From positions 1 to 64,000 of IMG/VR virus record IMGVR_UViG_3300017721_001026: a stretch of DNA of 64,000 nucleotides; one strand, 5' to 3'. Positions within the stretch are counted from its first letter, which is position 1. Each line of letters begins with the position of its first letter. Source of the DNA: a virus. Taxonomy: Duplodnaviria > Caudoviricetes. The notes below the pieces were generated by a model that worked only from the letters and a program-made list of their open reading frames with translations, was not told where the DNA came from and did no database searches. A program made the position numbers and the translations under genes. Positions 28,230 through 32,978 of the stretch are shown here, piece by piece.

Positions 28230-31200
28230 TTAACCTCCGAGTGCTAGAATAAATGGTGTGACGCTGTTGAACAATGATTTAATATAGACACGACCTGAGA
28301 TCGTTCCAGTTGCCTGGTCAATTTGAATACCATCACCAATTCGGAAGTTACCTGCCTGGTCAGTACTTGTATAAACTACAAGACCACCGTCCTCTTGAAC
28401 AACTTCATTGTCCTGAATGATGATACCTCCAACTGAAGGTCTTGCGGTAAGGATCGTGTTTCCTGCACCGACATATTCAAATGAGTGTGAAGATGTAATC
28501 TGCAAACTCTGACGAGTTATATAGGCAATTTCACCACCCGTTAAATTATTATTTAGTCCTTGGTTCATGGTGACAGTTGCAATTCCACTACTAGGAAGTG
28601 TCGAAGATGCAACCTTGAAGTAAAGTGGTTGCATTCTTTGGACTTCAACTGTTGCCTGAACACCACTAGTAGGTGGTGTAATTGTGATTGTTGGGAATGA
28701 ATTTTCTTGATACTGAGTACCAGAGTTAGCAACCAAGAAATCAACAACTTGTCCATCTTCAATAATGGGAATACCTTGTGCGGTAATACCATCTGGACCC
28801 GTTGGATCAGAGAATACAACACCTGGGACAGCACCCTCATAACCAGAACCAGGATTAGTAATTTTTACTTTCTCTACAGAGAAGTAGAGTTCGTCAAAGA
28901 ATAGTGTCTGACCATCATAAGGTCTTTGTGTACCAACACCCGATAGAACAACTCTTCTATCACCGATATCATATCGACCTTGAGCATCTGATCTTCCAGG
29001 ATCACCTGCCTTAACAACCTCAGCAGTCTGTCTATAGTTAGAACTGGAGTTTTCATCACCAACACCTTTAGAAACTAGACCAAACTCACCGAAAGAAGAG
29101 TTGGAGTTTGTAAGGTCACACTGACCACCTGTAAGGGTTACGATTGCTTCGTTACAGCAGATAGTAAAGATAGACACCAACTGAGCATATGCACCGTTTG
29201 TGATGGATACTCCGATACCACCTTGATTATATTGAGTATATGAGTCAACACTCATTGATCCCTGTACACCTAGTTCGTCTTTATCACCTGGATCAGCATC
29301 GAAACCATCGATTCTCATACCGATGCTATTTTCAATAAAGTTAGTACAGTTTCTAATGTAAGGACCTTTTAGAACTGGACCATCAGTACCTGGAGAGAAT
29401 GTTGGGTCATTTATAAAGTCGGATCCAGCACCACCATTGCCTGGGAATCTGGTAGAAATACCAGAACCACCATAGTTCACTGCAGATGTTGCTGCAGAAA
29501 CAAACGTATGTACATATCCTGCACCGAAAGCAGCAATTGATCCAGCATTAATTGTGAATGTGCTTGATGTTGTCTGAGAGATACCTACAAACTTATCAAA
29601 AATTGGACTGGTTTTATCTGGATATCCAATTGTAGTGATGTTGCCATCAGAGTTACAAGTGAAATTAATTGAGTTGGGAGAAAGTTTTACTTTATCTGAA
29701 GTTGTTAGTGGATGACCTGCTACAGTAACTGTTAATGCACCACCAACTGGATCGTAAGTAGCATCAGTTGGAGTTAGATAAAGAGGTTCTTGAAGTGCTC
29801 TAAAACCATCTTCGATGATTGCAGTAGCAACACCAACTGCGGTATTGACTGCGGAAATAACATTCTTACAGTTACCAACAGTATTGTTATTGCCAGTATC
29901 AGAATCAATTTGAATACTTACATCTCTAATTTGACCAATATCTGGTCTGAAGGTTCTTGTCTTCTGAATTGTTCCACCACTTGCATAACTATGAGCAAAA
30001 GTTGATAAACCAACGTTGATTGCTACTTTAGTATCAGAGATATAATCTTTGACTTCAAAACAATCACCAAATGTTCCATCTGGGAAGATTGATGTAGTAA
30101 CACCAATTCGTAGTTCACCACCAGAATTGTAAGTATGTTCAATCGTGGAAATACCTACATTTGTGAAGATGATTGTTCCTCCAGTGCCGACATATGCATC
30201 AAAGATAGCATCACCACCACCTTGTACACCATCTGGATAAATTGATGTGGTTATACCTGCTTGTACAGTACCACCACTAACGTAAGTTGTTGCGATTGTA
30301 GATACACCTACATTAACTGAAAGTGTAGAGGTTCCATTTGAAGCAGTGACTAAGAATACATCTGGACCATAACCTTGAACGAAGTTACTTGTTCCATCTG
30401 GGAAGACAGTTGTTGTAATACCTGCTTGTGCAGTACCACCACTAACGTAGGTATGTGCAATAGTGGAAGGTCCAACATTAACGGCAAACTCAGTCGTTGA
30501 ATTTACTGTGGCAACTCTGAATACATCTGGACCATACCCTGGAATGAAGTTACTTGTTCCATCTGGAAAGATTGTCGTAGTAATACCAGAACCACCAGGA
30601 CAACTAAATTCAAGATTCTTAAGTTGAACGGTTTCACCAGTATGAATACCAGAAACACCTGAAGTAGTAACTGTTAGACTGCCACTATTTTCATCATACA
30701 CTGCTGATGATACGTTAACAACTGGTCCCAGTCCAGAACTAGCACAACTCCATGTCAATCCTTTAATTTGTACAGTTTTTCCTACATGTGCTCCATGTGC
30801 TGCACCAGTTGTTAAGTCAAGAACACCTGTACCTTCATTGTATGATGCTCCTGAAACACTGACAGATGGACCAGTACCAGAATCACCGCAGTCCATCTTG
30901 ATACCACGAAGTTCAAATTCATCACCAGAACTTAATCCATGATCTGAACCCACAAATATAGTACTGAAACCCGATTGTCTATCATACTGGAAATCTGTGA
31001 TAGAAATTACATTATTATGAGCAGCACAACTGAATCCAAGACCAGCAAGTTTAACAGTATCCTTATCAGTTAAACCATGACCAACATTAGTTGTTACTGT
31101 AATAATACCTGCAGATGCAGAATAATCTCCTGCGGTAATGTTAAATGCAGTTCCAATAGTATAAGAACCATCTCTTACGTTATTAACAATTCTTCTTACT

Positions 31201-32978
31201 ACATCTTTTGAATATTCTAGTGCAATAACAGATTGCTCATATTCATCGGGATCAACTAAAAGAGCAGTAAGTCTATTGCCATTTGCATCATAATAAGACT
31301 TACCAGCACCAACAACTTTTGTATTACCACCACGGGTGATGTCATAGCAAACAGCTTTCCAAATTTTTGCAACATCACGACGACACTTATCTTGCTCTAG
31401 TCTCATGCCAGTGGTAATTCCTGGAAGACTATCAGTATTACCTGCACCAATCGCACTGGTTACAATTCCTACCAGTTCGGTAATGTCATTGTTGACATTG
31501 AGACAAATACCATTACCTACAACGTTTTCACCACGAAGAGTTGTTCCTGCAGCTGCTCCAGTATCAAACTGTTGTTCAAAAGTGCTGTATTGGGTGACGG
31601 TTGTTGCTGTTCCAGAACTTGCTGTATAGAATGTTTCAATAGTAGAAATACCAGCATTAATAACAAATTGATTGGTATTAAATAAACCATCCGAGTCAAT
31701 CTTGAAGTTGAAACCAGAAGGAGCACTTCCATCTGGAAAAATAGTTGTTGTTACACCAGAGTGCTCAGTTGCACAAGTAAATGCGAGTCCAGAGAAAGTA
31801 ACATGATCTGTTGTACTTAATCCATGACCAATTAGTGTTGTAACTGTAGCAATACCCGTATTTGGAGTATAATTAAATGCCGTAACAGTTACTCCACTAC
31901 CAACATTTTCAAATCCATATGGTTTATTATTGATAGCAAATGTTGCAATACCAGCAGCACGATCCATTGCTGCAATGGTTGCTTCAGAAATACCAACACC
32001 TAGAATATGTGAAAGTGCTCCACCAACAAAATATGACTGTGCAGCACCTACGGTTTTAATATTTGCTTGAGTTCCATCTCTATAACCTGCTCTTAAATCA
32101 TGTGCTACTACTTCTAAAATATCATGAACATCATCCTGACAGTTTCTGGCAGTGCTGAATGACATCGTAAATGCACCACCAGCATAATTAACACTAGTGA
32201 TAAATCCTACTGCTTCTGCTGCAATATATTCAGCATTAAGATCAATAAGTCTCGCAGCATCCTGTGCTCTATGAGATCCAGCAACACCACTAAATCCACT
32301 AGTCAGGAAACCAACTGCCTCACCTGCAATATAATCCGCATTCTGACGGATCATTCTTGAACCATCAAAATATCTATCTGATGCTACACCTTCTAAAGGA
32401 ACGAAAGCAATAACTGCCTTGTCACTTTGCATTGGTTCACCAAGGAATCCAGGATCAGAACCACCATCCTGAACGCCTTTAGAACCACCACCAATATCAG
32501 CACCTTTACCAATAAATGCTAAATCAGTTAAGTGACATGCATTATTGATATGGAATAAATCTTTATTTGAGTTATTTGGAGCAATATAACAGTTTCTTAA
32601 TTCAAAACCTTCTACAGATACATTATCCCTAAGAACAATAGGATTATTTTCGGTATAAAGACCAGCAGAAACTTTAATAGTATCACCTGGTTGAGCAACT
32701 TCAGATGCTCTCTTTACACTTGCAAAAGCATCTTGTTGTGTTAAACCACTATTTAAATCATTACCTTCTACAGTAACAAAAAACGTATTACCAATACTTC
32801 TACCAGCACCAACCGTAACCACTCGGGTTGCGATTCCTACACCTTCAGTATCTTGACGAACAAATACAGTACCATCAAAATGGTTGATAGCTAACTCACC
32901 ATAAGTCAACTGTTCTAGATTAGGGACAGATCCTGGGGTTAAGGATCTCTTTAACCTAATTTTTGGACTTGTATTCAT
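28230..32978 (-). CDS. Large fibre/spike-like structural protein: beta-helix (pectin-lyase-like) scaffold with nested inserted domains
   Basis: N-terminal I.LKRS..PG.VP....L..GELAIN..DG; FV...G.D.NSG....AFAS...A...GDTI.V.AG.Y.E; C-terminal PYIRNCT/SYTQYNQGG.G and STDQ.GNFRIG; ATAAATA box at 33018-33024. Confidence 0.8.
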   Translation of the reverse strand: MNTSPKIRLKRSLTPGSVPNLEQLTYGELAINHFDGTVFVRQDTEGVGIATRVVTVGAGRSIGNTFFVTVEGNDLNSGLTQQDAFASVKRASEVAQPGDTIKVSAGLYTENNPIVLRDNVSVEGFELRNCYIAPNNSNKDLFHINNACHLTDLAFIGKGADIGGGSKGVQDGGSDPGFLGEPMQSDKAVIAFVPLEGVASDRYFDGSRMIRQNADYIAGEAVGFLTSGFSGVAGSHRAQDAARLIDLNAEYIAAEAVGFITSVNYAGGAFTMSFSTARNCQDDVHDILEVVAHDLRAGYRDGTQANIKTVGAAQSYFVGGALSHILGVGISEATIAAMDRAAGIATFAINNKPYGFENVGSGVTVTAFNYTPNTGIATVTTLIGHGLSTTDHVTFSGLAFTCATEHSGVTTTIFPDGSAPSGFNFKIDSDGLFNTNQFVINAGISTIETFYTASSGTATTVTQYSTFEQQFDTGAAAGTTLRGENVVGNGICLNVNNDITELVGIVTSAIGAGNTDSLPGITTGMRLEQDKCRRDVAKIWKAVCYDITRGGNTKVVGAGKSYYDANGNRLTALLVDPDEYEQSVIALEYSKDVVRRIVNNVRDGSYTIGTAFNITAGDYSASAGIITVTTNVGHGLTDKDTVKLAGLGFSCAAHNNVISITDFQYDRQSGFSTIFVGSDHGLSSGDEFELRGIKMDCGDSGTGPSVSVSGASYNEGTGVLDLTTGAAHGAHVGKTVQIKGLTWSCASSGLGPVVNVSSAVYDENSGSLTVTTSGVSGIHTGETVQLKNLEFSCPGGSGITTTIFPDGTSNFIPGYGPDVFRVATVNSTTEFAVNVGPSTIAHTYVSGGTAQAGITTTVFPDGTSNFVQGYGPDVFLVTASNGTSTLSVNVGVSTIATTYVSGGTVQAGITTSIYPDGVQGGGDAIFDAYVGTGGTIIFTNVGISTIEHTYNSGGELRIGVTTSIFPDGTFGDCFEVKDYISDTKVAINVGLSTFAHSYASGGTIQKTRTFRPDIGQIRDVSIQIDSDTGNNNTVGNCKNVISAVNTAVGVATAIIEDGFRALQEPLYLTPTDATYDPVGGALTVTVAGHPLTTSDKVKLSPNSINFTCNSDGNITTIGYPDKTSPIFDKFVGISQTTSSTFTINAGSIAAFGAGYVHTFVSAATSAVNYGGSGISTRFPGNGGAGSDFINDPTFSPGTDGPVLKGPYIRNCTNFIENSIGMRIDGFDADPGDKDELGVQGSMSVDSYTQYNQGGIGVSITNGAYAQLVSIFTICCNEAIVTLTGGQCDLTNSNSSFGEFGLVSKGVGDENSSSNYRQTAEVVKAGDPGRSDAQGRYDIGDRRVVLSGVGTQRPYDGQTLFFDELYFSVEKVKITNPGSGYEGAVPGVVFSDPTGPDGITAQGIPIIEDGQVVDFLVANSGTQYQENSFPTITITPPTSGVQATVEVQRMQPLYFKVASSTLPSSGIATVTMNQGLNNNLTGGEIAYITRQSLQITSSHSFEYVGAGNTILTARPSVGGIIIQDNEVVQEDGGLVVYTSTDQAGNFRIGDGIQIDQATGTISGRVYIKSLFNSVTPFILALGG

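What the first reader, a model, noticed from the sequence alone, without database searches (positions are those of the whole stretch)
29961..31145. Nested fibre domain: four N-halves followed by four C-halves of the same module
Seen: an intact copy of a beta module occurs earlier in the 1582-aa protein (FNYTPNTGIATVTT..GHGL...V.FSGLAFTC...GVTTTIFPDG...F.INAGISTI). In this interval four N-halves run consecutively, ending LGFSC, IKMDC, LTWSC and LEFSC. Four C-halves then follow, starting GITTTIFPDG, GITTTVFPDG, GITTSIYPDG and GVTTSIFPDG, each ending ST...(H/T).Y.SGG. The insertion point is always the loop after the conserved Cys. The simplest reading is N1-N2-N3-N4-C4-C3-C2-C1: each domain is inserted inside the previous one, giving an out-and-back stalk. 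The two innermost C-halves are near-duplicates at DNA level (about 30354-30415 vs 30521-30582), which suggests recent growth. Inference: a length-tunable arm built by recursive domain insertion rather than tandem duplication.
Basis: partly seen in the sequence, partly recalled or inferred. Interest (0 to 1): 0.85.

Follow-up and report, generated by a model that had tools for sequence, protein, structure and literature searches.

The report
Self-nested beta-barrel arm in cyanophage fibre
A tail-fibre-type protein of a marine T4-like cyanophage carries four copies of one small beta-barrel domain inserted one inside another like Russian dolls, and related phages carry two, three or four levels, so the arm can change length while staying foldable.

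Summary
Window 29961-31145 (minus strand) encodes aa 612-1006 of a 1582-aa fibre-type protein. It reads N1-N2-N3-N4-C4-C3-C2-C1, where N and C are the two halves of a ~95-aa module. The same protein also has two uninterrupted copies of the module.

The nested reading is well supported by three lines of evidence:
- **Orthology.** In 21 orthologues, N2 and C2 lie side by side as an intact module. Here about 210 residues separate them.
- **Counts.** Of 53 orthologues, 52 have equal N and C counts (2+2, 3+3 or 4+4). Depth changes at least 19 times on a tree built from the flanks. Of 75 full-length family members, 71 give balanced-parenthesis strings, up to 31 N and 31 C.
- **Models.** In two AlphaFold2 models, single ~78-residue barrels (E1 FCCH-like, Z 8.4-9.8) align to N1+C1, N2+C2 and N4+C4.

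N3+C3 pairing was not read out directly. I could not inspect model coordinates. The function is inferred: a lateral arm of adjustable reach.

The build has a solved precedent in the Si3 insertion of cyanobacterial RNA polymerase. I found no paper describing it for phage fibres. This scan has already noted the same build on eight other genomes. I rate it a new variant of a known kind, of moderate to high interest.

The parts
28230..32978 (-). Gene for the 1582-aa tail-fibre-type virion protein (P0001) that hosts the nest
   Evidence: ORF. PHROG 17885 'tail fiber protein' at E 1e-262. 83% nt identity to Synechococcus phage S-SCSM1 gp026, which its record annotates as a virion protein.
31599..31889 (-). 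Uninterrupted module 0 (aa 364-460): N-half directly followed by C-half
31173..31247 (-). Predicted long helix (aa 578-602) just before N1, the entry side of the host helical region
   Evidence: Secondary structure of model m1b9bd1b25428. Confidence is low.
31026..31148 (-). N1 (aa 611-651), N-half of the outermost barrel, ends LGFSC
   Evidence: Pairs with C1 in both models (ranges 6-408 and 499-900).
30888..31010 (-). N2 (aa 657-697), ends IKMDC
   Evidence: Pairs with C2 in the model (range 52-357, Z 9.5). Adjacent to C2 in 21 orthologues.
30744..30866 (-). N3 (aa 705-745), ends LTWSC; absent from the 3+3 orthologues
   Evidence: Its closest N-half is N4, at 47% aa identity.
30600..30722 (-). 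N4 (aa 753-793), ends LEFSC; N-half of the innermost barrel
   Evidence: N4+C4 aligns to the FCCH barrel (range 147-252, Z 8.9).
30423..30587 (-). C4 (aa 798-852), starts GITTTIFPDG; closes the innermost barrel
30258..30422 (-). C3 (aa 853-907), starts GITTTVFPDG; 73% aa and 76% nt identical to C4
30105..30257 (-). C2 (aa 908-958), starts GITTSIYPDG; closes barrel 2
29961..30104 (-). C1 (aa 959-1006), starts GVTTSIFPDG; closes the outermost barrel
29793..29879 (-). Predicted long helix (aa 1034-1062) after C1, the return side of the host helical region
   Evidence: Confidence is low.
29481..29777 (-). Uninterrupted module 5 (aa 1068-1166) with the variant C-half (YPDK...TINAG...HTFVSA)

Best explanation
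Residues 612-1006 form four copies of one ~95-residue six-stranded beta-barrel. The fold is like the FCCH domain of ubiquitin E1 and the barrel inserted in phage endosialidases. The copies are nested by domain insertion. Each barrel is opened at the loop after its third-strand Cys, and the next barrel sits in that loop. The chain therefore runs outward through four N-halves, turns at the innermost barrel, and closes the barrels in reverse order (N1 N2 N3 N4 C4 C3 C2 C1). The stack emerges between two helices of the fibre-type virion protein and most likely makes a rod-like side arm. Related phages carry the same arm two, three or four barrels deep. The variation is at the tip, and the two outer barrels are constant. 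Depth is thus a heritable, frequently changing length setting. Shown here: the sequence pattern, the equal counts, the orthology-based pairing, and the barrel pairing in the models. Inferred: the rod geometry, a gain of perhaps 25-30 A per level (my estimate from typical barrel size), and a role in reaching or binding the host surface.
For: The sequence pattern is exact and is detected by profiles built from distant relatives only. S-SCSM1 gp026 has 3N+3C, and orthologue lengths step by ~103-105 aa (1373, 1478, 1582, 1685). Architecture strings are balanced in 71 of 75 full-length proteins. They include branched words and a 31N/31C word of depth 8. On a tree of the flanks of 53 orthologues, depth changes at least 19 times and N equals C in 52. 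P0001's flanks are 97% identical to those of a 3+3 protein. Orthology labels show that barrels 1 and 2 are constant and that N2-C2 lie adjacent in 21 proteins. N-N versus C-C identity correlates under nested pairing (r 0.65-0.82, p 0.002-0.012 in P0057, P0092 and P0062) and not under parallel pairing. AF2 model m1e360806c000 has pLDDT 75.6. FCCH barrels of Uba1/UBA6 align over 78 residues at rmsd 2.2-2.3 A to ranges 6-408 (Z 9.8), 52-357 (Z 9.5) and 147-252 (Z 8.9). A second model built in a larger context repeats N4+C4 and N1+C1. Virion location rests on the S-SCSM1 record and proteome (PMC9602691).
Against: N3+C3 pairing was never seen as its own range in the fold searches. It is inferred from topology and from the pairs around it. 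I could not read model coordinates, so contacts come only from the first and last aligned residues. pTM is 0.46, so the rod geometry is not established. The alignments used for folding are shallow (26 and 36 sequences). One orthologue, P0013, is unbalanced at 2N+4C. N3/N4 (47% aa) have diverged much more than C4/C3 (73% aa). That does not fit a single recent self-insertion without further assumptions. Fibres are usually trimers, and only a monomer was modelled. No functional data exist.
Confidence: 0.85

Rival explanations
1. N-type and C-type segments are two independent small domains. The region is simply a tandem array of four N domains followed by a tandem array of four C domains.
For: C4 and C3 look like a tandem duplicate (76% nt). 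One relative, P0013, has 2N+4C. Divergent family members gave 'N-only' strings.
Against: Independent arrays would not keep N equal to C in 52 of 53 orthologues through at least 19 depth changes. They would also not give balanced branched words such as NNNNCNCCNNCCCC or the 31/31 word. Single FCCH-type barrels align across N+C pairs, including pairs 300-400 residues apart. The 'N-only' strings come from a second C-half type that my profile misses. P0013's first N-half is an N1/N3 hybrid, so it is a deletion product or an assembly collapse.
Confidence: 0.04
2. The halves do pair into barrels, but between chains of a trimeric fibre (domain swapping) or in a register other than strict last-in-first-out. 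The arm would then be an intertwined stalk, not a single-chain nest.
For: Phage fibres and spikes are usually trimers. Only monomers were modelled. N3+C3 was not read out directly.
Against: Intra-chain nested pairing is what both models give for three of the four barrels. N2-C2 and N4-C4 occur as contiguous, self-contained modules in orthologues. FCCH and endosialidase barrels are monomeric insertion domains (established knowledge). The mirror test rejects the parallel register.
Confidence: 0.08
3. The repeat pattern, or its depth variation, is an artefact of metagenome assembly of repetitive DNA.
For: Most homologues come from metagenome contigs. P0013 could be a repeat collapse.
Against: The halves are only 51-76% identical at DNA level, which is too divergent to confuse assemblers. 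The cultured phage S-SCSM1 has a complete genome with the 3+3 form. Each depth class is seen on many independent contigs, and one 2+2 cluster is seen on 17.
Confidence: 0.02

Closest known systems
Si3 insertion of cyanobacterial RNA polymerase beta' (RpoC2), PDB 8emb; PMC10895346
   Same: Many copies of one small beta fold build a long arm (150 A) from a single chain. [quoted passage not shown] This is the same out-and-back, domain-within-domain build. Foldseek listed 8emb among its rows for my model.
   Different: The fold differs (sandwich-barrel hybrid motif versus FCCH-like barrel), and the 8emb row is weak (prob 0.08-0.09, TM 0.07-0.09). The host differs (trigger loop of a cellular enzyme versus a phage virion protein). 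As far as I read, depth polymorphism between close relatives is not described for Si3. Here depth varies from 2 to 4 among near-identical proteins, and the wider family reaches branched trees of 31 barrels.
FCCH domain of ubiquitin-activating enzyme E1 (Pfam PF16190; PDB 7zh9, 7pvn, 4p22, 2v31)
   Same: This is the best structural match to each barrel: Z 8.4-9.8, 76-80 residues aligned, rmsd 2.2-2.5 A, 13-21% identity. FCCH is itself a domain inserted into another domain (established knowledge). A family member, P0057, scores 29.3 bits against PF16190, just under the 29.5 cut-off.
   Different: P0001 has no Pfam match. There is no E1 context. FCCH is not known to host copies of itself.
Beta-barrel domain inserted in phage endosialidases (K1F 1v0e, NF 3gvj/3ju4, phi92 4hiz)
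   Same: A phage tail-spike protein with a barrel of the same fold inserted as a side domain: Z 7.8-8.7, 78-81 residues aligned, rmsd 2.0-2.2 A. In endosialidases this barrel carries a sugar-binding site (established knowledge).
   Different: It is a single copy, not nested. There is no detectable sequence similarity. Binding residues were not compared.
Split domains that project ligand-binding domains in RTX adhesins (AhLap; PMC12077191)
   Same: A carrier domain is split so that another domain is held out from a fibrillar surface protein (abstract).
   Different: There is one level of insertion, and guest and host belong to different families. It is a bacterial adhesin, not a phage fibre.

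Membership tests
Pfam PF16190 E1_FCCH | Sequence score at or above the Pfam gathering threshold | tested here: not met
   P0001 has no hit at E<=1. The relative P0057 scores 29.3 bits against a cut-off of 29.5, with no single stretch passing.
Pfam PF16190 E1_FCCH | Six-stranded barrel fold superposable on solved FCCH domains | tested here: met
   Z 8.4-9.8, 76-80 residues aligned, rmsd 2.2-2.5 A for three of the four barrels. These are predicted models with barrel pLDDT about 70-90.
Nested same-fold insertion arm (Si3 type) | Several copies of one fold in one chain | tested here: met
   Six N-halves and six C-halves in P0001.
Nested same-fold insertion arm (Si3 type) | Outer copies assembled from sequence segments far apart, closed in reverse order | tested here: met
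   Ranges 6-408, 52-357 and 147-252 each align to one ~78-residue barrel. The orthology pattern is N1 N2 (N4 C4) C2 C1. N3+C3 was not read out directly.
Nested same-fold insertion arm (Si3 type) | The repeated unit is a sandwich-barrel hybrid motif located in the RNA polymerase trigger loop | tested here: not met
   The best fold matches are FCCH, endosialidase and FNR-type barrels. 8emb appears only with prob 0.08-0.09. The host protein is a phage virion protein. This is therefore an analogue of Si3, not a member.
Phage tail fibre / spike proteins | Profile match to tail-fibre families | tested here: met
   phrog_17885 'tail fiber protein' at E 1.1e-262, and also phrog_5342 and phrog_9851. 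Relatives carry Mtd_N and the Peptidase_S74 chaperone domain.
Phage tail fibre / spike proteins | Present in the virion | not testable with these tools
   Only by proxy. The S-SCSM1 orthologue gp026 is annotated 'virion protein', and that phage's virion proteome was measured (PMC9602691). I did not see the protein list itself.
Phage tail fibre / spike proteins | Structural-gene neighbourhood | tested here: met
   The region is syntenic with S-SCSM1. Neck, sheath-stabiliser and small-terminase genes lie upstream. A 112-aa virion protein and a 712-aa fibre protein lie downstream.
Endosialidase barrel (sugar-binding insertion domain) | Conserved sialic-acid-binding residues | not tested
   Only fold similarity was measured.

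The most novel reading that the evidence does not exclude
Nest depth is a fast-evolving, selected 'length dial'. The arm grows or shrinks by whole barrels at its tip loop, and the balanced (last-in-first-out) rule keeps every variant foldable. This would let co-circulating cyanophages tune how far a binding tip reaches through the host's surface layers. The same grammar generates branched single-chain trees of up to 31 barrels in related virion proteins. Together these would be an undescribed general way for phages to build adjustable projections.
Probability: 0.35. Interest if true: 0.8.

Novelty: new variant of a known kind. Interest (0 to 1): 0.62.

Why it matters
Long projections in proteins are normally built from tandem repeats or coiled coils. 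Here one chain builds an arm by inserting a domain into copies of itself. Natural variants differing by exactly one barrel sit in otherwise 97%-identical proteins. That gives a ready-made series for two tests: whether fibre-arm length affects adsorption and host range in marine cyanophages, and how a deeply discontinuous domain folds. It also matters for annotation, because this module has no Pfam model and domain callers that expect contiguous domains will misread such proteins. The balanced-string rule is a simple check that separates true architectures from truncated or mis-assembled genes.

Tried and rejected
- **Covariation test.** I trained a mutual-information model on 150 non-redundant adjacent N-C pairs to pick the right C-partner for outer N-halves. 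It had no power, with mean ranks equal to the chance expectation.
- **Context model.** The large model (aa 110-1290) reached pLDDT of only 52.8 and did not fold the beta-helix-like ends. I therefore could not confirm that the whole aa ~200-1190 region is an insertion in a beta-helix. Its phycocyanin-like helical matches (Z ~10, rmsd 3.1-4.6 A, low pLDDT) are not trustworthy.
- **N3+C3 range.** No fold-search row gave a range equal to N3+C3.
- **Sequence searches.** The module profile and both ends of the protein found nothing usable among solved structures. Pfam found nothing for P0001.
- **Careful tree.** The IQ-TREE run did not finish in time, so the tree used is FastTree.
- **Literature.** Searches on cyanophage fibres with domain insertion, nested or recursive domains, 'Russian doll' and 'matryoshka' found no description of this build in phage fibres. 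The library is limited to open-access papers.
- **Parallel (queue) pairing.** Considered and rejected.
- **Complex prediction.** I ran none. It could not discriminate between alternative partners.

Full report
**The sequence**

The finding lies in a 4749-nt gene on the minus strand (window 28230-32978) that encodes a 1582-aa protein, P0001. The interval 29961-31145 is exactly residues 612-1006.

The translation shows four segments of ~41 aa with the pattern xVxxAxYxxxxGxxTVTTxxxHGxxxGxxVxLxxLxFxC. They end at Cys651, 697, 745 and 793. Four segments of 48-55 aa follow, with the pattern G(I/V)TT(S/T)(I/V)(F/Y)PDG...F.V......F.(I/V)NVG.ST..H.Y.SGG. They start at G798, 853, 908 and 959.

The same two patterns also occur side by side at aa 364-460. 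They occur again, with a variant second half, at aa 1068-1166.

Profiles built only from distant relatives find six N-halves and six C-halves here, with per-domain E-values of 4e-8 to 2e-22. No other ORF in the window has them. The one slip is small: the cited DNA near-duplicate is 2 nt out of register. It is 54/62 identical at 30356-30417 versus 30521-30582, and C4 versus C3 is 76% identical over 165 nt.

**The protein and the phage**

The window is a T4-like cyanomyovirus structural region, with all genes on one strand and GC about 35%. The gene is 83% identical in DNA to gp026 of Synechococcus phage S-SCSM1 (Kyanoviridae).

- That record annotates gp026 as a long tail fibre or baseplate wedge protein and marks it 'virion protein'.
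- The S-SCSM1 virion proteome was measured by mass spectrometry (PMC9602691).
- PHROG profiles call P0001 a tail fibre protein at E 1e-262.
- Pfam has no model for it.
- Relatives that carry the same module also carry Mtd_N and the endosialidase-chaperone domain typical of fibres.

**Do N and C counts change together?**

S-SCSM1 gp026 reads NC-NNNCCC-NC, which is three plus three. I took 120 homologues and 139 further cluster representatives from a profile search of 1.84 billion proteins, which gave 639 clusters at E<=1e-3. I called the halves with iterated profiles.

- Orthologue lengths step by ~103-105 aa (1373, 1478, 1582, 1685). That step is one N-half plus one C-half.
- I defined full-length proteins by conserved end motifs. 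Of 75 such proteins, 71 give a balanced-parenthesis string.
- The balanced strings include NNCC, NNNCCC, NNNNCCCC and NNNNNCCCCC.
- They also include branched words such as NNCNCNCC, NNCNNCCC and NNNNCNCCNNCCCC, a 16N/16C word (P0010), and a 31N/31C word of depth 8 in a 4057-aa protein (P0122).

The apparent exceptions have explanations:

- Some are genes cut by contig ends.
- Some have a C-half split by a ~320-aa foreign insert, so it is counted twice.
- Some carry a second C-half type (YPR..DP..TVNVG..HTFVSA) that my profile misses.

One real exception remains, P0013. It reads 2N+4C, and its first N-half is an N1/N3 hybrid. It is either a deletion by unequal recombination or an assembly collapse, and it comes from a single metagenome contig.

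I built a tree from the flanks only (first 350 and last 410 aa) for 53 orthologues. Nest depth changes at least 19 times on it, and N equals C in 52 of the 53. P0001's flanks are 97% identical to those of a 3+3 protein. Recombination between phages may inflate the count of changes. Even so, whichever way the variants arose, those that exist are balanced.

**Which N pairs with which C?**

I labelled every half by its best match among P0001's halves. The result was:

| Depth class | Order of halves | Orthologues |
|---|---|---|
| 2+2 | N1 N2 C2 C1 | 21 |
| 3+3 | N1 N2 N4 C4 C2 C1 | 9 |
| 4+4 | N1 N2 N3/4 N4 C4 C3/4 C2 C1 | 8 |

So N2 and C2 form an ordinary contiguous module in 21 proteins. In P0001 about 210 residues separate them. 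This fixes N2's partner as the third C-half, which is last-in-first-out order and not parallel order. It also shows that barrels 1 and 2 are constant and that variation is at the tip.

A mirror test agrees. Within a protein, N-N identities correlate with C-C identities under nested pairing (r 0.65-0.82, p 0.002-0.012 in P0057, P0092 and P0062). Under parallel pairing the correlation is about zero or negative. In old, saturated nests such as P0010 the test is silent.

Within P0001, N3 and N4 are each other's closest N-halves among the four of the nest (47% aa), and C4 and C3 are the closest pair of C-halves (73% aa). This fits barrels 3 and 4 being sister copies.

**Structure prediction**

AlphaFold2 on aa 603-1012 with a 26-row alignment gave mean pLDDT 75.6 and pTM 0.46, all beta. 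I could not read coordinates, but the structural aligner reports aligned ranges.

| Aligned structure | Model range | Corresponds to | Z | Aligned residues / rmsd |
|---|---|---|---|---|
| FCCH barrel, yeast Uba1 (7zh9) | 6-408 | N1+C1 | 9.8 | 78 / 2.3 A |
| FCCH barrel, human UBA6 (7pvn) | 52-357 | N2+C2 | 9.5 | 78 / 2.2 A |
| FCCH barrel, human UBA1 (6dc6) | 147-252 | N4+C4 | 8.9 | 79 / 2.3 A |

The independent wide search gave the same three range classes. It added ferredoxin-reductase-type FAD barrels, the barrel inserted in phage endosialidases (4hiz, Z 8.3) and the Sf6 coat I-domain.

A single ~78-residue barrel cannot span 300-400 residues unless it is made of the two end segments. The model therefore has nested barrels. 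A second model of aa 110-1290 was poor overall (pLDDT 52.8). It folded the nest again and gave N4+C4 (639-745) and N1+C1 (499-900).

N3+C3 never appeared as its own range. Its pairing rests on topology and on the pairs around it.

**How it most likely works**

Barrels of this fold are habitual insertion domains, as in E1 enzymes, endosialidases and P22-like coat proteins. Established structures show their two termini lying together at one pole.

Here the loop after the invariant Cys, between the N-half and the C-half, is where the guest sits. Each level would then add one barrel to a rod. The chain goes out through the N-halves and returns through the C-halves.

The nest is flanked by predicted long helices (aa 578-602 and 1034-1062, low confidence). 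The arm therefore projects from a helical part of the protein.

I infer a lateral arm whose reach is set by depth, perhaps with a binding site at or near the tip barrel by analogy with the endosialidase barrel. None of this function was tested.

How depth changes is open. One possibility is insertion of a copy into the tip loop in one step. The other is separate duplications of an N-half and a C-half. The unequal divergence of N3/N4 and C4/C3 favours neither cleanly. P0013 shows that recombination between N repeats can occur.

**Comparison with what is known**

Foldseek listed the Si3 domain of cyanobacterial RNA polymerase (8emb) among weak global rows. The paper on it (PMC10895346) states the following:

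- Its eight SBHM copies are not in simple tandem.
- SBHM-2 to -5 are built from distant parts of the chain.
- The whole forms a 150-A arm.

That is the same principle on a different fold and in a different host protein. RTX adhesin 'split domains' (PMC12077191) are a one-level analogue.

I found no paper describing the build in phage fibres. The module has no Pfam family and no solved relative by sequence.

After I had reached this reading, a look-up showed that this scan has already noted self-nested barrels in cyanophage or jumbo-phage fibre proteins on eight other genomes, with the same Si3 comparison. This window is thus one more instance.

What this window adds is the clean orthologue series of 2, 3 and 4 levels with near-identical flanks. 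It also adds the orthology proof of pairing and the unbalanced hybrid variant.

**Verdict**

It is a new variant of a known kind. Confidence in nested barrels is 0.85. Confidence in the functional reading, a length-tunable reach, is much lower at about 0.35.

Noticed in passing
P0013 (homologue, 1487 aa), aa 610-909: This is the only unbalanced orthologue, with 2 N-halves and 4 C-halves. Its first N-half is a hybrid of N1 (front) and N3 (back). That looks like unequal recombination between N repeats, or a repeat collapse in assembly.
   Followed up: partly
P0126 (4764 aa), e.g. aa 278-745; window module aa 1068-1166 (29481-29777): A second C-half type (YPR..DP..TVNVG..HTFVSA) exists. In P0126 the units read N-c'-N-c'-N-c'-N-C followed by a pile of HTFVSxS strands. 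This suggests nesting at a second insertion point, just before the last strand.
   Followed up: partly
P0068 group (about 10 proteins), e.g. P0068 aa 665-1047: A foreign segment of ~320 aa sits inside a C-half, after its first strands. The barrel therefore accepts guests at more than one loop and from other families.
   Followed up: no
P0122 (4057 aa): This protein gives a fully balanced string of 31 N-halves and 31 C-halves, branched, with maximum depth 8. Several shorter database entries (P0005, P0006, P0015, P0016) are fragments of this type of protein.
   Followed up: partly
window 28230-32978, aa ~60-200 and ~1190-1330: Both ends of the protein look like parts of a right-handed beta-helix, with helical segments, the barrels and the nest between them. 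My context model did not fold these ends (pLDDT under 35), so I could not test it.
   Followed up: partly
window gene, aa 205-360 and 495-602: Helical motifs recur (..NA.YIA.EAVGF.TS.. twice; C..DV..I...V..D...GG....GA..SY twice). Barrel modules lie between the third and fourth helix-like segments of each unit, so the helical part may itself be a repeated host domain.
   Followed up: no
all modules, e.g. Cys651/697/745/793 and the His in STI.H.Y: Every module keeps exactly one invariant Cys, at the lip of the insertion loop, and a nearly invariant His. No partner Cys exists within a module. The role (core packing, metal or other) is unknown.
   Followed up: no
P0003 / P0011 (1685 aa), aa ~491-600: The 1685-aa orthologues carry one extra uninterrupted module between module 0 and the nest. 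The protein therefore also varies by whole tandem modules outside the nest.
   Followed up: no
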